From the IMG/VR virus record IMGVR_UViG_3300047548_001271, positions 93,443-157,442 of that record: 64,000 nt of DNA; one strand, 5' to 3'. The position numbers were made by a program, and so were the translations under genes. Below are positions 17,506-62,671 of this stretch, in pieces. Under the pieces are notes generated by a model. The model was not told the origin of the DNA and searched no databases. It was given only the letters and a program-made list of their open reading frames with translations. Each line of letters opens with the position of its first letter. Within the stretch, counting starts at the first letter, position 1. The stretch is from a virus.

Positions 17506-18789
17506 TTAAGAAACTTCTTCCATATCTTGATAGTCGTCAGCTTCCTTAGCAATCCCCTCCAGAACCTTAAAGAGGAACGATTTGTTCTTGAAAGTCTTCC
17601 ATTTACTAGAGTCTACGCGAACGCACACTCCTTCTCGCGGATGACGAGGATCAACCAAGTCAGGTCCGTCAGTAAATCCATCCACCACTTCAAGAAGTTT
17701 ATCGTAGTCTCCATCGAAAGTCAAGCGAGAAATCTCAGGAACGTATTTGACGCCCCAAGAATCACATTTCGACTTCACTTGATCCCATGTGAGATCGATA
17801 GCCTCGCCATTAGGAAGAACGTAAGCAATACGATAGACGTAGATATCAAAGTCAAGAACAGGGAAACCAGTTTCATCGCATTTGCGAGCATCACAGTTAT
17901 AGGTATAAGTAATCTTATCGCCATACAACTTCTTAACTTCCTTGTCCTTAGTTTTAGATGTATCTTGAACTGGCATGATAGGTTTACCATACTCAAAACC
18001 AACAACCTCAAAGAAAATTTCCATATGGTCTTCGAGATATGGATATAGCTTTTCAGCCACCTTTTCGCGGAAAGACTCAGAGTAATACCCAGTGTCATCT
18101 CCACGAAGTGTTACGTTACGAGTCCCATTGTAGAGACGCATAACTTTACGATCTCTCTTGATTTTGAAGAATTCGAGAACTCTGTCATACCATTTTTCCG
18201 GTTTCTCTTCGTAGTTCTTTGCAACTCGCTGAGAAGTTCCGTGCATTTTTAGAGTGATGACAAGGTTATCACCAGCTTTGATCGAAGCTAGAGAGTGACG
18301 TAGCTGCTCAGTATCCTTATGTTTCGGAAACCAAATGCTCTCACGACAAACCTTAGTAGAGTTATTGCTTCTAGCTCTAAGAGTCCGAGGAGAAAAGTAT
18401 TTCTTGCAGATTTCCTTGCCGTTAAATGTGGCGATTTTATCTCCTTCTTTCAGAGAAGAAGTATCACCAGCGTAATTCAGGTGCGACAGCGGACACCAAA
18501 ATCCATTAGATTTTAGGCCTCGAACTTTTTGTGCTCGAACCTTACGGTTTTCATCGAACATTCCTCCGGCATTAGTTCCGTCCGGATTCTTTCGACGAAC
18601 GAGATCATTTGCAGCGGCAAATTCTTCGCTAAGCTGTAGATCGCAAGGGAAATACAGACCTAGTTCACCATCAGCAGTCTTGTTCGAAACAACAATAGTT
18701 TCCCCAAGAACCCAACCAACAGCAAGCGAATGAACTTCTGGATCTGGGTGTGGTGTTACTTTAATTCGTGTTACAATGGCTTCGTGCAT
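17506..18789 (-). CDS. RNA ligase (DRB0094/Rnl2-like) with N-terminal OB domain
   Basis: Motif I TLKMHGTS, motif III IFFEVVG, FDIYVY, motif IV REGVCVR, motif V FKNKS. Confidence 0.8.
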   Translation of the reverse strand: MHEAIVTRIKVTPHPDPEVHSLAVGWVLGETIVVSNKTADGELGLYFPCDLQLSEEFAAANDLVRRKNPDGTNAGGMFDENRKVRAQKVRGLKSNGFWCPLSHLNYAGDTSSLKEGDKIATFNGKEICKKYFSPRTLRARSNNSTKVCRESIWFPKHKDTEQLRHSLASIKAGDNLVITLKMHGTSQRVAKNYEEKPEKWYDRVLEFFKIKRDRKVMRLYNGTRNVTLRGDDTGYYSESFREKVAEKLYPYLEDHMEIFFEVVGFEYGKPIMPVQDTSKTKDKEVKKLYGDKITYTYNCDARKCDETGFPVLDFDIYVYRIAYVLPNGEAIDLTWDQVKSKCDSWGVKYVPEISRLTFDGDYDKLLEVVDGFTDGPDLVDPRHPREGVCVRVDSSKWKTFKNKSFLFKVLEGIAKEADDYQDMEEVS

Positions 18790-23941: not shown

Positions 23942-23995
23942 GGTCACTTTCTTAGTATCGAAACTAAATAATCCATATTAATGCTGTGAGTGACC
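23942..23995 (-). promoter_or_regulatory. ACAGCA leader motif with T-loop-like hairpin
   Basis: GGTCAC-TCACAGCA-linker-TTAGT(TTCGAT)ACTAA-GAAA-GTGACC, just before an ATG. Confidence 0.65.
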
Positions 23996-24609: not shown

Positions 24610-24718
24610 TCCGGCAGCTAGGATTCGAACCTAGATCACGATCTTAGAAGTGATAATTTTAATGCTGTTAGAGATAAAATATCTCGTTTTACGTGTTTTA
24701 CCGTTAAACTACCGCCGA
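24610..24718 (-). ncRNA. tRNA-bodied RNA with ACAGCA module in the anticodon arm (copy 1)
   Basis: Acceptor TCGGCGG/CTGCCGG, D arm GTTT-AACGGTA-AAAC, T arm CTAGG-TTCGAAT-CCTAG; arm insert TAAAAC-GAGAT(ATTTT)ATCTC-TAACAGCA. Confidence 0.8.
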
Positions 24719-24719
24719 T

Positions 24720-24823
24720 ATGTGTTGCCGGGACTCGAACCCGGATGCTAAAATTTTATGCTGTTAGAGATCTTTTCTGTATCTCGTTTTCATATTTTTG
24801 CTTTACCATTAAGCTACAACACA
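24720..24823 (-). ncRNA. tRNA-bodied RNA with ACAGCA module in the anticodon arm (copy 2)
   Basis: Acceptor TGTGTTG/CAACACA, D arm GCTT/AAGC, stem AAAAT/ATTTT enclosing GAAAAC-GAGAT(ACAGAAAAG)ATCTC-TAACAGCA, T arm CCGGG-TTCGAGT-CCCGG. Confidence 0.82.
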
Positions 24824-24828
24824 TTTTT

Positions 24829-26205
24829 TTAAACAATATATCGATCTTTCATGATCGTCTCTAACATTACTCCTTCTGGTGACAGATCACCAAAAAGTGA
24901 AGGAATAATACTTGGAGAATAACCACTAACCAAAGCAACTCCTTTATCAGAAATTTTAGCTTGGAAGTTTTTATCTCTGCCGTTAACATTCCAGAAAACA
25001 ACTTGAGGAAGTTTATATCCATGAGACTCGAATTGAGATGTCATAGTTTGATAATTTGTCCCACGACAAGCAGAATTAAATTCCATGTCAGAGATGATTA
25101 GAATTTTACTTGGCATGTCATGGTTTGTCAAGTTGTTTTGTACGGCTTTGTTGAGAATCAACTCAAATACTTTTTGTAAGTCAGTGCTCATTCCCCATTC
25201 AGCTTGAGAAAGCTGTCTAAGTCGTTGACCAAAGTCACCAGAAAGCTGTTGAAGTTTTGGATTACTAGAGAAGGTAATAAAACAATCCTTAAAGATTCCA
25301 GTATTACGCTGCGAACAGTACATTGCTAATGAAATTGATGCATGAATTGGTCTAAATTGAGGATCTGAATAACAACCCATGCTACCACTAACATCAGAAA
25401 CAACCAATACATTTTCATCTGTATAATAATTCGGTAGTGCGTTCCACTGAGCAACAGCAACTACTGGATTTTTATTATACGATAGCAAAACATCATGAGG
25501 GAACAAAACACTAGCATTTATTTTTGCTTCACCAGAAGCTACTTTCGTCATGTATTGACCAAATCTTTTTGGATCTCGCTTATTAAAAGACCGAGAATAA
25601 ATAGACATAGCTTTTGATGGAACAGCAGAATATTTAATTTCTGACCATTGACGAGCACTCATCTGTTGTTCAACGACTTTAGTATTTTTTACAATTCTTT
25701 GCTTGAGACTAATAATCGAAACATCTAGTTTGGCAGCGACAAGGCCAAGCAAATTTCCTTCATTGTGTCTTGGTAGCCACTTACAAAGAAGATTATTGTC
25801 AATGTTGTCTGCGATAAACTGTGCTGTGTCATCGCATACTGGCATTACCATCCTTTTAGTAGTTGAGGTGCCCCATAGATCGTCCCATCGACCAATATCT
25901 GGAACCCTCTTCATAACTCTGATCTTATCTGCTTTAGGAAGAGATCTGTAAATCAACCGGAAAAGTCTTCGTTCTCCAGCTCCTCCACGAGGATCTCTCA
26001 ACCACAGCAAAATTCTGAGTGCGAGATCTGGATTACTGATGTAGGCTTTTTCCCACAAAAGCAAAACTTCCTTGTCTGGACGGCTTCTCATAGAAGCAAT
26101 AGTAGAAAACAAATCAACTAAAGGAGAACCAGTAGTTGAATGGGATTCTGCCCCATTAGCAGTCAGAGAATCATTCGTTTGAAGAGCATTAATCAATTTA
26201 GACAT
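24829..26205 (-). CDS. DUF2828-family protein (TROVE/Ro60-like helical domain + vWA)
   Basis: TANGA..STT, RDPRGGAGERRLFR, GRWDDL, KWLPR, MIDAS DVSGSM, WGMSTDL, ISDMEFN, VFWNV, VSGYS. Confidence 0.85.
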   Translation of the reverse strand: MSKLINALQTNDSLTANGAESHSTTGSPLVDLFSTIASMRSRPDKEVLLLWEKAYISNPDLALRILLWLRDPRGGAGERRLFRLIYRSLPKADKIRVMKRVPDIGRWDDLWGTSTTKRMVMPVCDDTAQFIADNIDNNLLCKWLPRHNEGNLLGLVAAKLDVSIISLKQRIVKNTKVVEQQMSARQWSEIKYSAVPSKAMSIYSRSFNKRDPKRFGQYMTKVASGEAKINASVLFPHDVLLSYNKNPVVAVAQWNALPNYYTDENVLVVSDVSGSMGCYSDPQFRPIHASISLAMYCSQRNTGIFKDCFITFSSNPKLQQLSGDFGQRLRQLSQAEWGMSTDLQKVFELILNKAVQNNLTNHDMPSKILIISDMEFNSACRGTNYQTMTSQFESHGYKLPQVVFWNVNGRDKNFQAKISDKGVALVSGYSPSIIPSLFGDLSPEGVMLETIMKDRYIV

Positions 26206-26223: not shown

Positions 26224-26275
26224 TGTCGCATTTCATTCAGGAAAAGTGAATTTTTTTTATGTGCTGTTAGCGACA
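26224..26275 (-). promoter_or_regulatory. ACAGCA leader motif with anticodon-loop-like hairpin (DUF2828 5'UTR)
   Basis: TGTCGC-TAACAGCA-A-rich-ATTCA(CTTTTCC)TGAAT-GAAAT-GCGACA, just upstream of the AAGGA RBS. Confidence 0.8.
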
Positions 26276-26284
26276 ATATGACTA

Positions 26285-27283
26285 CTATTTCATCACCAAA
26301 ACTCGCTGTTTTGGTATTACATTCCTATTAACGCTTGTACTTTGAATAAACACAATCCATTCGCCATGATCTTCCGGTGTAATCTTTACTTCTGAATTCG
26401 GAAGATTTAGCAATGTTCTTGCATTATCACCAGTATAAACTTTACCATTCTTTTTGTTCTGTACGGCAATTTCTTTTTGCGGTTGAACATGTTCATTTTT
26501 TACTAGTTCATAAAAAGAATTTCCAAGAACATATTTAGTCCCAAGTTTCTTTTCAACGAGCGGTTTTATTTGAACCGCTTTTACATCCTCGTTGATGATC
26601 ACATCATAGCTTCCGTCTTTTACTATGTCAAGCACTTTCGAAACATTTTTTGAAGTCACTTCGGAAAGATTAGAGAAAATGCTTCTGGTAGACTTAACTC
26701 CGGATTTTCTTGCTGTGAAGAAATTATCCATCGTCTGCTTGAATTTATTACCGACCTCAACAACGCCTTCTTTTGTTGCATTCCAGATTTCAATATTTCC
26801 TTCTGGAATACCAAGATTTTTTAAGGCCATGACGCCCGCTTGATTAGGAACAAAAGCGGCAACTGTAAAATTATCTGGAAGAGTTTTTAATTGATTGATT
26901 AATTCTATCGGTTTTGTTTTTGAGTGGTTTTCTTCTCCATCCGTTATTAGATAAATAATGAAAGAGTGATCGCCGTATTTTTGAGGAAGCTCTTTCGCAT
27001 CATTAATAGCTAGACAAAAAGCATCTCTTAAGGCCGTATTTCCATAAGCTGTGATTTCTTCAAGTTTTACTGGTCTTGCCACATCAACATCACTAATTAC
27101 ACATTTAACATCAGAAGCAAAAGTATAGAAACTAATTCTAGTCTCTTGTTCTTGTTCAATGCTAGACTGCCTCAGATTATCTATTTGTAAATTAAATATA
27201 TCAGAAGCTGTTTTGATGATTGGAGCCATTGAGCTTGATACGTCCAAGCAAACAAATACATGGTTTTTATAAGTATTTTTCAT
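26285..27283 (-). CDS. von Willebrand factor A domain protein
   Basis: MIDAS LDVSSSM, GNTALRDA, LITDGEEN; C-terminal FYELVK...QSTSVNR domain. Confidence 0.85.
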   Translation of the reverse strand: MKNTYKNHVFVCLDVSSSMAPIIKTASDIFNLQIDNLRQSSIEQEQETRISFYTFASDVKCVISDVDVARPVKLEEITAYGNTALRDAFCLAINDAKELPQKYGDHSFIIYLITDGEENHSKTKPIELINQLKTLPDNFTVAAFVPNQAGVMALKNLGIPEGNIEIWNATKEGVVEVGNKFKQTMDNFFTARKSGVKSTRSIFSNLSEVTSKNVSKVLDIVKDGSYDVIINEDVKAVQIKPLVEKKLGTKYVLGNSFYELVKNEHVQPQKEIAVQNKKNGKVYTGDNARTLLNLPNSEVKITPEDHGEWIVFIQSTSVNRNVIPKQRVLVMK

Positions 27284-27304
27284 AAGAGATCCTTAAAAGT
27301 TACA

Positions 27305-27358
27305 TGTCGCGTTTTAATCTTTTACCAAAAAAAAGTTATTTTTATGCTGTTAGCGACA
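27305..27358 (-). promoter_or_regulatory. ACAGCA leader motif with anticodon-loop-like hairpin (vWA 5'UTR)
   Basis: TGTCGC-TAACAGCA-TAAAAATAA-CTTTT(TTTTGGT)AAAAG-ATTAAAAC-GCGACA, upstream of the AAGGA RBS. Confidence 0.8.
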
Positions 27359-27359
27359 A

Positions 27360-27442
27360 TGGACCGAGTAGGAATCGAACCTACCAACACAAGAATTTAA
27401 AATCCGGATTAAAATTCTTATAGACACCAGCTCTGTCGGCCC
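27360..27442 (-). ncRNA. tRNA-like RNA with Ala identity (G3:U70) and extended anticodon-less arm
   Basis: GGGCCGA/TCGGTCC-A acceptor, T arm GTAGG-TTCGATT-CCTAC, reduced D region, 10-bp stem ATAAGAATTT/AAATTCTTGT. Confidence 0.7.
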
Positions 27443-27449
27443 TTTTTAA

Positions 27450-27523
27450 TGGACAGAATAGGAATTGAACCCACCACAGATGCATTGCAAATGCTTCTCG
27501 CCACCCTTGGAACATGTCCGCCC
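27450..27523 (-). tRNA. tRNA-Ala(UGC), atypical
   Basis: G3:U70 and A73; loop TTTGCAA; one mismatch in the anticodon stem; C8. Confidence 0.75.
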
Positions 27524-27530
27524 GTATTAT

Positions 27531-27558
27531 ATTGTATAGTCTATTTGGCGATTGTCAA
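27531..27558 (-). promoter_or_regulatory. promoter of the tRNA-Ala / vWA / DUF2828 cluster
   Basis: TTGACA-N16-TACAAT ending 7 nt before the tRNA-Ala 5' end. Confidence 0.75.
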
Positions 27559-44716: not shown

Positions 44717-44786
44717 TTTTTTTTATCCTTTAAAGTACCACTGGTGGGACTCGAACCCACACACACCTTTCGGTATAGGAGATTTT

Positions 44787-45485
44787 CTTACCACTACAAT
44801 TTTAATTGCTAGGTGTATATAATATAGCAAACCTATTTGTGGTCTGGACTTTGTCTTTGCCATGTTAGTATTATACTAATTTAGGCACCCCCTGTCAAGT
44901 CTCTACACCTTTTATTTGGATTTTTTATGAAATTTAGAAAATACACAAAAGAACAACTAATTGAAGCCGTTCAATCATCTATTTCTATTAGAGAAGTTTT
45001 AATTAAACTTAATGTTTCCGCACATGGTGGAAACTATAGTGTAATAAAAAGCTATATCAAAAATTTGAATATAGACACTTCTCATTTTAAAGGAATGGGT
45101 CATAGTAAAGGTAAAAATTTCGGCCCAAAAAGACCAATTGAAGAATACCTTTCCAATAAACATAAAATAACTTCTCATAAACTTCGTCAACGACTCATTA
45201 GAGAAGAATATTTTGAGCATAAATGCTCTTGTTGCCAAAATGTTTTATGGAACAATAAACCAATTCCTTTAGAGCTTGAGCATAAAGATGGAAATCACTA
45301 TAATAATAATTTAGATAATTTAACATTATTATGCCCAAACTGCCATGCTCAAACATCTACTTATAGAGGTAAGAACATATCCAAATAACTTGGCTCGGCA
45401 TTAGCATCAGCACTACCTGTTAAGCCTTCACCGAGTTTAAGGGGTTCTACATAAAAAGTTTCCTTTTTAGCACTCAAATTAAATT
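44787..45485 (-). mobile_element. group I intron (trnL-UAA type) containing a homing endonuclease gene
   Basis: Inserted after U34 and ends in G; P AAACTCGGTGAA, Q AATGCCGAGC, R GTAGAGACTTGA, S AAGACAAAGTCC. Confidence 0.9.
44927..45388 (+). CDS. HNH homing endonuclease, antisense within the intron
   Basis: CSCC...LELEHKDGNHYNN.LDNL.LLCPNCHAQT; N-terminal YTKEQL..AV.SS.S..EVL.KL. Confidence 0.9.
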   Translation: MKFRKYTKEQLIEAVQSSISIREVLIKLNVSAHGGNYSVIKSYIKNLNIDTSHFKGMGHSKGKNFGPKRPIEEYLSNKHKITSHKLRQRLIREEYFEHKCSCCQNVLWNNKPIPLELEHKDGNHYNNNLDNLTLLCPNCHAQTSTYRGKNISK

Positions 45486-45529
45486 AAGTCTCCTGCGTCT
45501 GCCAATTCCGCCACAGTGGCATATCATCT

Positions 45530-50726: not shown

Positions 50727-52768
50727 CGCAATCCCCTTTGACAAAAAAGAAAAGACATGATTCCTTTTATCGAGCTTGAGTAATTAGCCACGCCAAACGA
50801 AGTATACAAGATCTGAGTGTTATGTCAAGCGATTTACCAAGCTGTGGGCACAAAATCATCGCCAGATTTTTCCCAGTAAACTCTGCGGTTTCCACAACAA
50901 CAGCGTTTACTAAAACCATTCCACCCATTGCAAGATTCCCCTGCGTCATCACAATTATTTCCATCAAAGTCTAAATAATCGAACCCCAAACCATATACAA
51001 TTGGGAGTATTTTTGAGCGGATTAATTGAATATCACTAATATCGCAAACGCCGGAAAATGCTGTTTTAATTTCATCGTTGGAAAAAGATTCAATTGGAAC
51101 GAGAGAATCAATAATATTTTCTATAATTTCATCTCGGTTGATTTTAGATTTCATTGTTCATTTTTCCATTGTTAAAAGATAATTTTCTAACACAGAAGTG
51201 TGTTTTATTAACCGGTCAATATAAGCCCTATACTCTTCTACTTTTTTTAGTAGAAATGTTTTTAGCAATTCTTTGTCTTCTGGATTTGCTAATACATCTG
51301 GGTCGTCAATTAAGTAGTTATTATGCTCATCAAGAAAAAAACACATGGTTTGAGGGTCAACAAAAGGATAGTGCATTTGATCACCTACCAAAAATTCTTG
51401 TGATTATATTATACAATTAGTTTGTATACTGTCAAGAAATTTCACCAATCATTTTTTCAGCTTCTAACAATTTTTCGTTGGCTTGACAGAGTGGTATTTC
51501 ATCTTGTAGAGACTCTATAGCAGCTCGTCTTACTGACATCCAACAACTTTCAACTTTTTGTAGTTTTTCTTTATTAGTTAGTAAATACCAGCTACAAGCT
51601 TGTGTGGATTCCCAAAACTTACACAATAATTTTATTTGAGATTTTCTTGCTGGAAGTATTTTATTATGAATTTTTTCCTTTTCTTCCCAACCAAGAGGGC
51701 AGCAATGAAACATGTACGCAAGCTCTATTGCAGCTTGAAATCTGAGATAGCATTGTTCATTAAATGAACACTCTCGTTCGTATATATTCCAACATGCTGT
51801 TATGTTTTTACAAATTCCAGAAAAATATGCATCTGCAATAAAATTTTCAACTTTTGTCATTGTTCAGCTCCAATCATTTTTTGCTGGTGAAATTGGTGTC
51901 GCTTGGCCATTTTCTATATTGGTAATATCAAAAGCATCAACCCATTGAGCAGACATTCTTTCTCGCGGAAGTTCAAACTTTTCACAATAATGATCTAAAA
52001 TTTGATTAGCACTCCAAAATTCAAATTCATGAACTGGTATTACATATCGTGGTATTTTATTAATCGAGATCAGTAGGGCGTTTTGCATTATAATTCTCCA
52101 AGAATTGTGATTTGGCGTAAGACTCGCTACTATTGTAGACTATCATACGCCTATACGGGTTTTTACAAAAAACGCTGTACCGTCTATCATTATCTATGAT
52201 AATTCCAGAAGCGTAATCATCACGCAGAAAGAAGTGCTCATTTTCACAAATAATAACACAAGCCATATCACATTCTCCAAACTTCGTGCTTTTGACTCGT
52301 CATGTGACGATTATACAATTGGAACGGCTATTGTCAAGCCCTTTTTTCGCGATTCTGGATGTATTTTTTTACGAGCGAGTCTTTTCGTTCTTGATCAATC
52401 ATTGTGCTGATTTTATAAACTAATCTGTAATAAGCATGGTCAATAGGATTCCATTTATCATTTTTATCAATCCATATCGGCGTTTTATTTTCAAGCTTAT
52501 TTTCGTTTTTCCGCCACCATTCCAAATCCACAAGCCTAGAAACCAAAATTTCGCATTCAATTAAGTCTGTATCAAGAAAAACTAATTTAACAGTTGCCGT
52601 TTCCACATTTTTAATAAATGAAAGATGACAAGCATCACGAATGCTTACCATCTCAAGATCAGTTGTCATTTTGATTCCTTTTCTAATCCATTACAATCAA
52701 CTCAGATAAGTTAGCAGCCAATCGAAGATTACGCTCTTCAGCTTCTGTATTTTTTATAATTTGCATAT

Positions 52769-62270: not shown

Positions 62271-62386
62271 AACAGTCCGACCATCCGTTTTGTCCGCCAC
62301 TTACTAGATGGCTTCGTACACAATTAACACACAGGTTTTCCAAGTTTTACCAGTGTGAATAATTACGGTTTTCGCCCCGGACTGTT
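62271..62386 (-). ncRNA. three-way-junction RNA, copy A
   Basis: AACAGTCCG/CGGACTGTT, AAAAC-stem-TACGAA-GCCATCT...GGATGGT. Confidence 0.7.
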
Positions 62387-62419
62387 ATTTAGACTTGTTT
62401 GAAAAAAAATAAAAAAAGA

Positions 62420-62523
62420 AACAGTCTGACCATCCGTTAGAGAGTTCTAAAGGTTCCCTATATCTACTAGATGGCTTCGTACATAACCTATGATTATGGT
62501 TATGGTTTTTTAACCAGACTGTT
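62420..62523 (-). ncRNA. three-way-junction RNA, copy B
   Basis: AACAGTCTG/CAGACTGTT (compensatory change relative to copy A), same junction sequences. Confidence 0.7.
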
Positions 62524-62529
62524 CTTTAG

Positions 62530-62634
62530 CACGCAGGAGTTAATTACGCTCCTTTTCGAAGGCCCACCCGGTTTAGTGCCGTTTTAACCGTTTATCGAAT
62601 TACGGTAGTGTTGCTGTTAGCTTGGCCTCGCGTG
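62530..62634 (-). ncRNA. structured RNA containing the TAACAGCA...TAAAAC module
   Basis: CACGC/GCGTG and AGGCC/GGCCT stems; TAACAGCA-ACCGT(AATTCGATAA)ACGGT-TAAAAC. Confidence 0.6.
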
Positions 62635-62642
62635 TTTTTCAT

Positions 62643-62671
62643 ATTGTATCAAGTGTTTTCGGTACTGTCAA
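62643..62671 (-). promoter_or_regulatory. promoter of the ncRNA cluster
   Basis: TTGACA-N17-TACAAT with extended TG. Confidence 0.75.

What the first reader, a model, noticed from the sequence alone, without database searches (positions are those of the whole stretch)
26224..27358. 5'UTR modules display anticodon stem-loop mimics, possibly sensing anticodon nucleases
Seen: both leaders share the closing helix TGTCGC/GCGACA next to the RBS and contain a 5-bp stem with a 7-nt loop and U at the position-33 equivalent: ATTCA(CT-TTT-CC)TGAAT (Lys UUU-like) and CTTTT(TT-TTG-GT)AAAAG (Gln UUG-like). The copies at 23942 and 62.6 kb show TTCGAT T-loop-like loops instead. Established: tRNA-Lys, -Gln and -Glu with U34 are targets of anticodon nucleases such as PrrC and RloC. 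Inference: cleavage or binding of the mimic could switch translation of the downstream gene, or the loops act as decoys.
Basis: partly seen in the sequence, partly recalled or inferred. Interest (0 to 1): 0.78.

Follow-up and report, generated by a model that had tools for sequence, protein, structure and literature searches.

The report
Handle RNAs beside a Ro60-like gene
The two "leaders" are copies of a small structured RNA that accompanies a Ro60-shaped RNA-binding protein gene in many phages and resembles RNAs thought unique to social amoebae; their anticodon-like loops fit a family habit of displaying tRNA look-alike parts, but nothing yet shows they sense tRNA nucleases.

Summary
The sequences are there as described, on the minus strand. 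Both modules (27358-27305, 26275-26224) have the 6-bp closing helix UGUCGC/GCGACA, an invariant single strand UAACAGCA, and a weak 5-bp hairpin with a 7-nt loop.

They are not private leaders. A covariance model built only from other phages ranks them first and second in the whole window. The family lies beside DUF2828 genes: 82 hits in 552 kb of such loci, 81 on the gene's strand, against 2 weak hits in 966 kb of control DNA.

The window's DUF2828 protein folds like Ro60. The family consensus has the same design as the dictyostelid Class I RNAs (Rfam RF01414), although it scores below that family's threshold.

The inner hairpin is the variable part. Loops run from 3 to 17 nt, but strict CU-NNN-A loops are enriched (9 of 67 against 0.19 expected), as are D-loop-like UUGGU strings. 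Four further copies in this window carry UUCGAUA loops or whole tRNA bodies.

So tRNA-part mimicry is a real family trait. These two loops are imperfect examples, and sensing of anticodon nucleases is untested.

This scan has already noted the same handle-plus-DUF2828 system on other DNA (155 notes, at least 129 genomes).

The parts
27531..27558 (-). Sigma-70-like promoter (TTGACA-16-TACAAT) that could start the unit: tRNA-like pair, handle RNA, vWA gene, handle RNA, DUF2828 gene, two tRNA bodies with handles
   Evidence: 11 of 12 consensus matches. This is a consensus match only, not evidence of function.
27359..27516 (-). Two tRNA-like RNAs directly upstream of leader 2. 27441-27359 has an acceptor stem, a T arm and an extended 11-bp anticodon-like arm. 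27516-27442 is a weak Ala(UGC)/Cys-like body.
   Evidence: Sequence reading. ARAGORN calls only one of them, and only at a relaxed threshold. Folds.
27305..27358 (-). Handle RNA 'leader 2': P1 27358-27353 with 27310-27305; conserved strand UAACAGCAU 27352-27344; variable hairpin 27335-27319 (loop UUUUGGU 27330-27324); A-rich joiner ending AAAAC
   Evidence: Top hit of the independent model R2 in the window (30.5 bits, E 5e-4).
26285..27283 (-). vWA-domain protein gene (332 aa), preceded by leader 2
   Evidence: Pfam VWA/VWA_2 just below the cut-offs, phrog_26613 E 8e-78. Not syntenic with DUF2828 genes in other loci.
26224..26275 (-). Handle RNA 'leader 1': P1 26275-26270 with 26229-26224; conserved strand UAACAGCAC 26269-26261; variable hairpin 26251-26235 (loop CUUUUCC 26246-26240)
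   Evidence: Second-best hit of R2 in the window (27.0 bits, E 3e-3).
24829..26205 (-). DUF2828 + DUF7788 protein (458 aa), predicted to fold as a Ro60-like TROVE ring plus vWA domain; the proposed protein partner of the RNAs
   Evidence: Pfam PF11443 and PF25043, phrog_850 'RNA-binding protein'. Model pLDDT 88. The 13 best Foldseek PDB matches are all Ro60/TROVE, E 1e-8 to 2e-4, TM-scores about 0.36-0.63.
24719..24824 (-). tRNA body (Phe-GAA-like) with a 32-nt insert in the anticodon loop that is a circularly permuted, loop-capped handle: AAAAC-GAGAU-loop-AUCUC-UAACAGCAU-AAA
   Evidence: Rfam tRNA 52.4 bits. ARAGORN with intron search. Sequence. Fold.
24610..24718 (-). Second tRNA body (read as CUA by ARAGORN, ambiguous) with the same capped handle inserted 5' of or within the anticodon stem
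   Evidence: Rfam tRNA 39.9 bits. ARAGORN with intron search. Fold.
23942..23995 (-). Third stem-closed copy: P1 GGUCAC/GUGACC (two compensatory double changes relative to the leaders), strand UCACAGCAU, hairpin with the T-loop-like loop UUCGAU; 5 nt before the ATG of a 94-aa ORF
   Evidence: Weak with the independent model (12.8 bits). Strong only with R1, which it helped to train.
62552..62671 (-). Possible divergent copy at the 5' end of a separate non-coding RNA with its own promoter (62671-62643): GAGGCC..UAACAGCAA..ACCGU-AAUUCGAUAA-ACGGU..UAAAAC..GGCCUU
   Evidence: Neither covariance model finds it, so membership is uncertain.
17506..18789 (-). RNA ligase gene, giving RNA-repair context about 6 kb downstream in the same orientation
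   Evidence: Pfam PF09414, E 1.8e-10.

Best explanation
The two modules belong to a widespread phage family of about 55-65 nt 'handle' RNAs. Each has a terminal 6-8 bp stem followed at once by a conserved unpaired strand (consensus UUACAGCAA; here UAACAGCAU/C). An A-rich joiner, a variable hairpin and a second A-rich joiner complete it.

The family travels with genes for DUF2828, a protein predicted to fold like Ro60. I infer that the stem plus ACAGCA strand is the docking site for that protein, as the conserved stem of a Y RNA is for Ro60. I also infer that the variable hairpin is a displayed cargo, which in many members copies part of a tRNA.

In this window the particle's RNAs are interleaved with its genes in what looks like one unit: promoter, two tRNA-like RNAs, handle RNA, vWA gene, handle RNA, DUF2828 gene, then two tRNA bodies carrying a permuted handle.

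The two stem-closed copies end 6 and 12 nt before the Shine-Dalgarno sequences. A bound 50-kDa protein would probably also hinder ribosome entry, giving feedback control of the vWA and DUF2828 genes. That step is inference only.

Shown here: family membership, linkage to the gene, the Ro60-like fold, and covariation of the stem. Inferred: protein binding, cargo display and feedback control.
For: The modules belong to a family:
- Model R2 was built only from copies in other phages. It ranks the two leaders first and second in the 64-kb window, both strands, filters off (30.5 and 27.0 bits).

The family is linked to DUF2828 genes:
- Model R1 gives 82 hits at E<=1 in 552 kb of 81 DUF2828 loci. 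Of these, 81 are on the gene's strand, and 51 of 81 loci have 1-4 copies.
- 966 kb of unrelated viral contigs give 2 hits, at E 0.15 and 0.35.
- A contig found only through the 14-mer (L025) has a perfect copy about 230 nt upstream of another DUF2828 gene.

The stem is real:
- In the 82-sequence alignment 91% of cells pair and 137 cells carry changes on both sides, with no shuffle reaching this. Sliding the partner drops pairing to 35-42%.

The protein is Ro60-shaped:
- The model has pLDDT 88. The 13 best PDB matches are all Ro60/TROVE structures, aligned over about the full length.

There is precedent for the arrangement:
- Bacterial and phage Y RNAs lie within 4 kb of the Ro60 gene on the same strand (PMC4201824).
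- Thermus phage phiLo Ro60 binds two Y-like RNAs encoded just upstream of its gene (PMC12135203).

The cargo idea has support:
- CU-NNN-A loops, UUGGU strings and tRNA-like bodies are enriched in or present among family members.
- All six copies in this window carry tRNA-related cargo.
Against: No binding has been shown. The link between RNA and protein rests on gene neighbourhood and analogy.

Thirty of 81 DUF2828 loci gave no hit within the 3-kb flanks.

The window's copies are divergent. Their stem lacks the usual GGAU/AUCC, their strand ends AU or AC rather than AA, and they lack the CUGU tail.

The Y-RNA motif that contacts Ro60 (GNCGAA) is absent, so the mode of recognition would have to differ.

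The vWA gene that also carries a handle leader is not a regular neighbour of DUF2828 elsewhere.

Feedback control is unsupported beyond geometry. Most family copies do not abut a start codon.
Confidence: 0.6

Rival explanations
1. The inner hairpins imitate the anticodon arms of tRNA-Lys and tRNA-Gln and are cut or bound by host anticodon nucleases. This would switch translation of the downstream gene, or would decoy the nuclease away from real tRNAs.
For: - Both have 5-bp stems and 7-nt loops, with 5 of 7 loop positions identical to the phage's own tRNA-Lys and tRNA-Gln loops.
- Strict CU-NNN-A loops are enriched in the family (9 of 67 against 0.19). UUU/CUU is the commonest middle triplet, and tRNA-Lys is the natural PrrC target (established knowledge).
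- An RNA ligase gene lies 6 kb away.
- A decoy role is compatible with the main explanation, as one kind of cargo.
Against: - The hairpins are marginal (-0.8 and -1.3 kcal/mol) and are not the minimum-energy fold of the module.
- Leader 1 has C at the purine-37 position.
- Leader 2's loop equally fits the D-loop-like UUGGU type, and its U8 run slips between registers.
- Family loops range from 3 to 17 nt.
- By my reading, copies that abut start codons mostly have 9-10 nt non-anticodon loops.
- Modified bases that nucleases such as PrrC or gamma-toxin rely on cannot be inferred here.
- No nuclease was tested.
Confidence: 0.1
2. The modules are purely cis-acting leader elements, independent of the DUF2828 protein. 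They could be a small-ligand or temperature switch, or a 5' stem that stabilises the mRNA after the upstream tRNA-like RNA is trimmed off.
For: - They sit 6-12 nt from the Shine-Dalgarno sequences.
- 19 family hits abut a start codon.
- Leader 2 begins 1-2 nt after a tRNA-like 3' end, so processing would leave the stem at the 5' end of the mRNA.
Against: - Most family copies lie downstream of the gene, between tRNAs, or in tandem arrays with no ORF to control.
- A permuted copy sits inside tRNA bodies.
- The Shine-Dalgarno sequence is not part of any conserved pairing.
- The element is tied to one gene family rather than to genes in general.
Confidence: 0.12
3. The modules are processing punctuation of the tRNA-island transcript: recognition sites for a host or phage endoribonuclease that separates tRNAs from mRNAs. 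The same site inside the two tRNA bodies would then act as a removable insert, a protein-dependent mini-intron rejoined by the phage RNA ligase.
For: - Copies lie at RNA-gene and mRNA junctions in tRNA islands.
- Inserts of 32 and about 37-40 nt interrupt otherwise good tRNA bodies.
- An RNA ligase gene is present.
Against: - The two inserts sit at different positions in the anticodon arm.
- No bulge-helix-bulge or ribozyme core was recognisable by eye or by Rfam.
- In dictyostelids the look-alike RNAs accumulate as stable 42-65 nt species (PMC7919456), which suggests a product rather than a discarded spacer.
Confidence: 0.1
4. The repeats act at the DNA level, as promoters, operators or a miniature mobile element, and the apparent RNA structure is incidental.
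For: - They are repeated intergenic sequences with inverted repeats.
- An A/T-rich stretch follows the conserved strand.
Against: - The strand bias is 81 to 1 relative to the gene.
- The stem sequences differ between copies but stay complementary, which neither an operator nor terminal inverted repeats would show.
- Copies occur inside tRNA genes.
Confidence: 0.03

Closest known systems
Ro60 (Rsr, TROVE + vWA) with Y RNAs, especially bacterial and phage YrlA/YrlB and the Thermus phage phiLo Ro60-Yrl1/Yrl2 pair (PMC4201824; PMC12135203; Rfam RF02553)
   Same: A ring-shaped TROVE + vWA protein by predicted fold. Small RNAs are encoded next to the gene on the same strand, often in several copies. 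A stem formed by the RNA's two ends serves as the proposed docking site, with a variable module that imitates tRNA. One family member (L180:2103-2218) encloses a tRNA-like domain and gives a weak YrlA match (26.4 bits).
   Different: The protein is DUF2828, not Pfam TROVE, with no sequence-level match to any solved Ro60. The RNA lacks the GNCGAA/GGUCCGA Ro-binding motif and has an unpaired ACAGCA strand instead. Most members are half the size of Y RNAs. No window copy matches YrlA in Rfam. In two window copies the RNA ends lie in a tRNA acceptor stem and the handle is loop-capped, the reverse of YrlA topology.
Class I RNAs of dictyostelid social amoebae (Rfam RF01414; Kjellin et al. 2021, PMC7919456)
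   Same: Size of 42-65 nt. A 6-bp stem joins the ends. A conserved 11-nt motif CCUUACAGCAA lies directly 3' of the 5' stem strand. The interior is variable and A/U-rich. Conserved ends are AAG...CUGU. The phage consensus is auAAAGGAUgCUUACAGCAA...AAAAAAAAuGcAUCCUGUaA. Typical phage copies hit RF01414 at 32.5, 27.6 and 24.8 bits.
   Different: All phage hits are below the gathering score of 41.5. The window's own copies are not detected at all, even at E<=10 on an 81-nt stretch. Class I RNAs have a eukaryotic DUSE promoter and were reported as absent outside Dictyostelia. Their known direct binder is the RRM protein Rnp1A. Whether dictyostelids have a DUF2828 protein was not testable here. Common descent versus convergence is open.
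Autogenous translational operators in phage and bacterial mRNAs (T4 gp32, RegA and gp43 operators; ribosomal-protein leaders that mimic rRNA). This comparison is from general knowledge.
   Same: A structured site for an RNA-binding protein placed a few nucleotides from the Shine-Dalgarno sequence of that protein's own gene. The site copies the protein's normal RNA ligand.
   Different: No binding or repression has been shown here. The same element also occurs free-standing, in arrays and inside tRNA bodies, so leader placement is optional.

Membership tests
Phage DUF2828-associated ACAGCA-handle RNAs (uncatalogued family defined here by models R1 and R2) | Scores with a covariance model built without the window's own sequences | tested here: met
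   R2 gives leader 2 30.5 bits (E 5e-4) and leader 1 27.0 bits (E 3e-3). These are the two best hits in 64 kb, both strands, filters off. Copy 3 scores only 12.8 bits.
Phage DUF2828-associated ACAGCA-handle RNAs (uncatalogued family defined here by models R1 and R2) | Terminal stem followed directly by an unpaired ..ACAGCA.. strand; A-rich joiners; total length 50-70 nt | tested here: met
   6-bp stem, UAACAGCA, 52 and 54 nt. The stem is present in both the minimum-energy and the centroid folds.
Phage DUF2828-associated ACAGCA-handle RNAs (uncatalogued family defined here by models R1 and R2) | Lies within a few kb of a DUF2828 gene, on the same strand | tested here: met
   Leader 1 is the 79-nt spacer before the DUF2828 start codon. 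Leader 2 lies 1.1 kb upstream on the same strand.
Dictyostelid Class I RNA (RF01414) | Reaches the Rfam gathering score (41.5 bits) | tested here: not met
   No RF01414 match in the window at E<=1, nor on leader 2 at E<=10. Typical phage relatives reach 32.5 bits at most.
Dictyostelid Class I RNA (RF01414) | 11-nt motif CCUUACAGCAA next to the 5' stem, with near-invariant U3, C6, C9, A10 and A11 | tested here: inconclusive
   The window has GCUAACAGCAU and GCUAACAGCAC, so 4 of the 5 near-invariant positions are kept and position 11 differs. The phage consensus CUUACAGCAA keeps all five.
Dictyostelid Class I RNA (RF01414) | DUSE promoter about 60 nt upstream; dictyostelid host | tested here: not met
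   This is a bacteriophage tRNA island with sigma-70-like promoters, tmRNA and bacterial-type tRNAs.
Y RNA / YrlA (RF02553) | Ro60-binding motif GNCGAAN0-1G in the terminal stem | tested here: not met
   The motif is absent from all window copies by inspection. The motif definition comes from PMC4201824.
Y RNA / YrlA (RF02553) | Encoded beside, and on the same strand as, a Ro60 orthologue | tested here: inconclusive
   The neighbour is Ro60-like by predicted fold only. It is Pfam DUF2828, not TROVE, and has no sequence match to solved Ro60 structures.
Y RNA / YrlA (RF02553) | Reaches the Rfam gathering score (69 bits) | tested here: not met
   No YrlA match in the window. The best relative elsewhere scores 26.4 bits.
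   Leader 2 loop UUUUGGU meets the pattern. Leader 1 loop CUUUUCC fails at position 37. Neither hairpin is the minimum-energy pairing of its module. At family level CU-NNN-A loops are enriched, 9 of 67 against 0.19.
   This needs biochemical or in vivo assays.

The most novel reading that the evidence does not exclude
The handle RNAs and the Ro60-shaped DUF2828 protein form a phage particle that presents baits shaped like tRNA parts. In the two leader copies, cutting or capture of the anticodon-like hairpin by a host tRNA nuclease would break the bound particle off the mRNA and switch on the vWA and DUF2828 genes. That would make it an RNA-damage sensor wired directly to the repair or counter-defence response. 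A corollary is that the unexplained Class I RNAs of social amoebae are the same kind of protein-docking handle RNA.
Probability: 0.08. Interest if true: 0.9.

Novelty: new variant of a known kind. Interest (0 to 1): 0.72.

Why it matters
DUF2828 is a large protein family in phages, bacteria and eukaryotes with no known function or RNA partner. My literature searches found no paper that links it to an RNA.

A partner RNA family defined by a simple handle gives a direct experimental entry: pull-downs, gel shifts and structures. It would also extend the Ro60/Y-RNA principle to a second protein family.

The handle has the same design as the dictyostelid Class I RNAs. Those RNAs are abundant, developmentally regulated and unexplained, and were reported as unique to social amoebae (PMC7919456). 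The phage data suggest a testable hypothesis for what their conserved motif is for.

For this window specifically, handle copies abut the ribosome-binding sites of two genes and a permuted handle sits inside two tRNA bodies. This gives natural constructs for testing both feedback control and cargo display.

Tried and rejected
- Rfam at gathering and E-value thresholds found no family over either leader.
- I compared the module by eye, from memory, with known small ribozymes, preQ1-type riboswitches and boxA/nut sites. Nothing fitted. These comparisons remain untested leads.
- Megablast of the region against 50,697 phage records gave no match.
- The exact 14-mer scan of IMG/VR was mostly chance hits. 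Only L025 was a true copy, and a five-contig family shares the 14-mer in a different structured leader.
- Relatives of the vWA protein are high-GC phage contigs without the motif and without DUF2828.
- The KVP40-like Vibrio phage leaders contain ..ACAGCAAA.. after an early promoter but have no closing stem, so I did not count them.
- A search for further loop-capped, tRNA-embedded handles in the 80 loci was too noisy to interpret.
- A profile search of DUF2828 against PDB sequences found nothing. Only fold comparison shows the Ro60 likeness.
- Whole-genome search was not possible because no genome is held for this window.
- Avesson et al. 2011, which lists four Class I RNA-binding proteins, is not held.
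- The protein atlas gave only phage and bacterial DUF2828 clusters, so the question of a dictyostelid DUF2828 stays open.
- No protein-complex job was sent, because I do not claim that the vWA protein binds DUF2828.
Full report
**Setting**

All genes in this part of the window run on the minus strand. The window is a phage tRNA island. It holds 13 standard tRNAs, a tmRNA, and two tRNA bodies of 104 and 109 nt by Rfam, 106 and 109 nt by ARAGORN.

The two "leaders" are short intergenic stretches. One (27358-27284) precedes a vWA-domain gene (26285-27283). The other (26284-26206) precedes a 458-aa gene (24829-26205). That gene is Pfam DUF2828 + DUF7788 and matches PHROG 850, "RNA-binding protein".

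**The observation**

The quoted sequences are present. Read 5' to 3':

| Part | Leader 2 | Leader 1 |
|---|---|---|
| Stem, 5' strand | UGUCGC | UGUCGC |
| Conserved strand | UAACAGCAU | UAACAGCAC |
| Joiner | AAAAAUAA | AUAAAAAAA |
| Inner hairpin | CUUUU-UUUUGGU-AAAAG | AUUCA-CUUUUCC-UGAAU |
| Joiner | AUUAAAAC | GAAAU |
| Stem, 3' strand | GCGACA | GCGACA |
| Distance to AAGGA | 12 nt | 6 nt |

The 14-mer TGTCGCTAACAGCA occurs exactly only at these two places in the window.

A third stem-closed copy lies at 23995-23942. Its stem GGUCAC/GUGACC differs from the leaders by two compensatory double changes, and its loop is UUCGAU. A looser copy lies at about 62630-62555, with loop AAUUCGAUAA.

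The finding did not mention two further copies. The same strand, AUCUC-UAACAGCAU-(U)AAA, preceded by AAAAC-GAGAU, sits as an insert of 32 nt and about 37-40 nt in the anticodon arms of the two long tRNA bodies at 24824-24719 and 24718-24610. There the helix is capped by a loop and the tRNA body takes the place of the variable hairpin. This is a circular permutation of the leader form.

**What the modules are**

A scan of IMG/VR for the 14-mer gave mostly chance hits. One contig, L025, has a perfect stem-closed copy (GCAGACGC / UAACAGCAU ... GCGUCUGC) about 230 nt upstream of another DUF2828 gene.

I then fetched 80 DUF2828 loci. Many have the same architecture directly before the gene, for example GAAUGU-UAACAGCAA...ACAUUC-UGUAAAGG..AUG. 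The stems differ between loci but stay complementary.

Model R1, built from 18 copies with only the stem annotated, gave these results:
- 82 hits at E<=1 in 552 kb of DUF2828 loci, 81 of them on the gene's strand.
- 2 hits, at E 0.15 and 0.35, in 966 kb of unrelated viral contigs.
- 51 of 81 loci have one to four copies.
- 19 hits end within 40 nt of the start codon. The others lie 50-700 nt upstream or 200-300 nt downstream, commonly among tRNA genes.

In the 82-sequence alignment, 91% of stem cells pair and 137 cells carry changes on both sides. No shuffle reached this, and sliding the partner drops pairing to 35-42%. That alignment was fitted to the model, which favours the structure. The MAFFT alignment shows the same pattern.

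Model R2 was rebuilt only from these other-phage copies. It ranks leader 2 (30.5 bits) and leader 1 (27.0 bits) as the two best hits in the entire window. Membership of the two leaders therefore does not depend on their own sequences. Copy 3 is weak with R2 (12.8 bits), and the 62.6-kb copy is not found.

**The protein**

A 39-sequence alignment gave a confident model (pLDDT 88, pTM 0.89). The 13 best PDB matches are all Ro60/TROVE structures: Thermus phage phiLo Ro60, Xenopus and human Ro60, and Deinococcus Rsr. E-values run from 1e-8 to 2e-4, with TM-scores about 0.36-0.63, over about the whole length, ring plus vWA domain.

Sequence profiles do not see this relation.

Ro60 proteins are known to work with Y RNAs encoded beside the gene on the same strand, in bacteria and phages (PMC4201824). 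The phiLo Ro60 binds two Y-like RNAs encoded just upstream of its gene (PMC12135203). By analogy, the stem-plus-ACAGCA "handle" is the likely docking site for the DUF2828 protein. This is inference; no binding has been shown.

**Relation to known RNA families**

Rfam has no family over the window copies.

Typical phage copies give sub-threshold matches to RF01414, the Class I RNAs of Dictyostelium: 32.5, 27.6 and 24.8 bits against a gathering score of 41.5. The alignment shows the same design: GaUcuC-CUUACAGCAA-(A/U-rich)-GagAuC-UG.

Kjellin et al. describe Class I RNAs as follows (PMC7919456):
- They are 42-65 nt long.
- A 6-bp stem joins the ends.
- An 11-nt conserved motif lies next to the 5' stem strand.
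- The ends are conserved as AAG...CUGU.
- None was found outside Dictyostelia.

The phage consensus (auAAAGGAUgCUUACAGCAA...GcAUCCUGUaA) shares every one of these sequence features.

One phage member (L180:2103-2218) has the same handle but encloses a tRNA-like domain. It gives a weak YrlA match of 26.4 bits. In L150, handles ending ACAGCAUAA, the variant seen in this window, enclose T-arm and D-arm look-alikes.

**The anticodon-mimic claim**

I tabulated the inner hairpins of 67 distinct members:
- Loop length ranges from 3 to 17 nt. Seven is the mode, with 21 by the scanner against 6.1 in shuffles.
- Nine loops have the strict anticodon-loop signature CU-NNN-A on 4-7 bp stems, against 0.19 in shuffles (maximum 2). 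The triplets are UUU, UGA, GUU, CUU and GAU.
- Three more 9-nt loops embed CU-NNN-AA closed by an A-A mismatch.
- UUGGU, as in tRNA D-loops, occurs in 9 interiors against 0.3 expected.
- Interiors fold better than shuffles (mean -1.47 against -0.86 +/- 0.13 kcal/mol).

Imitation of tRNA parts is therefore a real property of the family's variable module. All six copies in this window fit the theme. They carry two anticodon-like loops, two UUCGAUA loops that resemble T-loops, and two whole tRNA bodies.

The two leader loops are imperfect examples, for these reasons:
- They match the phage's own tRNA-Lys (CUUUUAA) and tRNA-Gln (UUUUGAA) loops at 5 of 7 positions.
- Leader 1 has C at the purine-37 position.
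- Leader 2's loop equally matches the UUGGU type, and its U8 run allows other registers.
- Neither hairpin is the minimum-energy pairing of its module. The whole-module z-scores are -0.8 and -1.9.
- By my reading of the rows, homologous copies that abut start codons mostly have 9-10 nt loops of other sequence.

A decoy or bait role for anticodon-like cargo in general is not excluded.

**Likely working in this window**

A promoter-like site (27558-27531) precedes two tRNA-like RNAs (27516-27359). These run straight into leader 2. The order then continues:
1. vWA gene
2. Leader 1
3. DUF2828 gene
4. Two tRNA bodies carrying handles
5. A small ORF
6. Copy 3

The RNAs and genes of the presumed particle are thus interleaved in what looks like one unit. 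An RNA ligase gene lies 6 kb further on.

The stems end 6 and 12 nt from the Shine-Dalgarno sequences. A bound protein would plausibly block ribosome entry, giving feedback control. This is geometry plus analogy with phage and ribosomal-protein operators, not a result.

The vWA gene is not a regular neighbour of DUF2828 elsewhere. Its handle leader may be what ties it to the system here.

**Prior notes and literature**

Earlier notes of this scan describe the same ACAGCAA-handle plus DUF2828 pairing on other DNA: 155 notes in at least 129 genomes. Other first-stage notes cover this same stretch. I reached the same reading independently before opening the word search. Those notes are not independent evidence.

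My literature searches found no paper linking DUF2828 to an RNA.

**Limits**

- There are no expression data or RNA-end data.
- No genome is held beyond the window.
- No binding evidence exists.
- Whether dictyostelids have a DUF2828 protein was not tested.

Noticed in passing
L150:3001-4365 and L150:2430-2980: This DUF2828 homologue has six in-frame TGA codons, two of them at the invariant RGGAGER glycines, so the contig probably reads TGA as glycine (code 25 type). The same contig has four handle RNAs, three ending ACAGCAUAA, that enclose tRNA-like T- and D-arm cargo.
   Followed up: partly
window 27359-27516 (-): Two tRNA-like RNAs that standard ARAGORN and Rfam do not call. One has a good acceptor stem and T arm but an 11-bp extended anticodon-like arm. 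The other is a poor Ala/Cys-like body. They run directly into handle RNA leader 2.
   Followed up: partly
window 62300-62671 (-): An apparent non-coding transcript with its own strong promoter (TTGACA-17-TACAAT with a TG extension). It starts with the loose handle copy. The string GUACGAAGCCAUCUAGUA occurs twice, near 62482 and 62318, and a U-rich terminator-like end lies near 62420.
   Followed up: no
window 44735-45520 (-): ARAGORN with intron search calls a tRNA-Leu(UAA) interrupted by 699 nt. Rfam gave no group I intron match at its gathering score, so this may be a false call or an unusual insert.
   Followed up: no
L029:10976-10989 (-), L048:94-107, L057:8370-8383, L063:6218-6231 (-), L080:6049-6062 (14-mer match coordinates): Five IMG/VR contigs share a conserved structured leader of about 75 nt (a covarying hairpin, then ..CUAACAGCAUAAAAAA..) just before the ribosome-binding site of a gene starting MAKKELGSK. 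It has no closing stem like the handle RNAs and no Rfam match.
   Followed up: partly
L125:3960-4000 and L126:3960-4000: In KVP40-like Vibrio phages the DUF2828 leader has an early-type promoter followed by AACGACAUUA(A/U)ACAGCAAA, but no closing stem. This may be a remnant handle or may be chance.
   Followed up: no
window 51578-51664 (-): A weak R2 hit (15.7 bits, E 0.7) with stem AAAUAC/GUAUUU and strand UUCCAGCAA enclosing a longer hairpin. I did not check whether it lies in coding sequence.
   Followed up: no
L133:841-902: A freshwater-1 RNA (Rfam RF02979, 72.9 bits) lies in the tRNA island of a phage contig that carries DUF2828.
   Followed up: no
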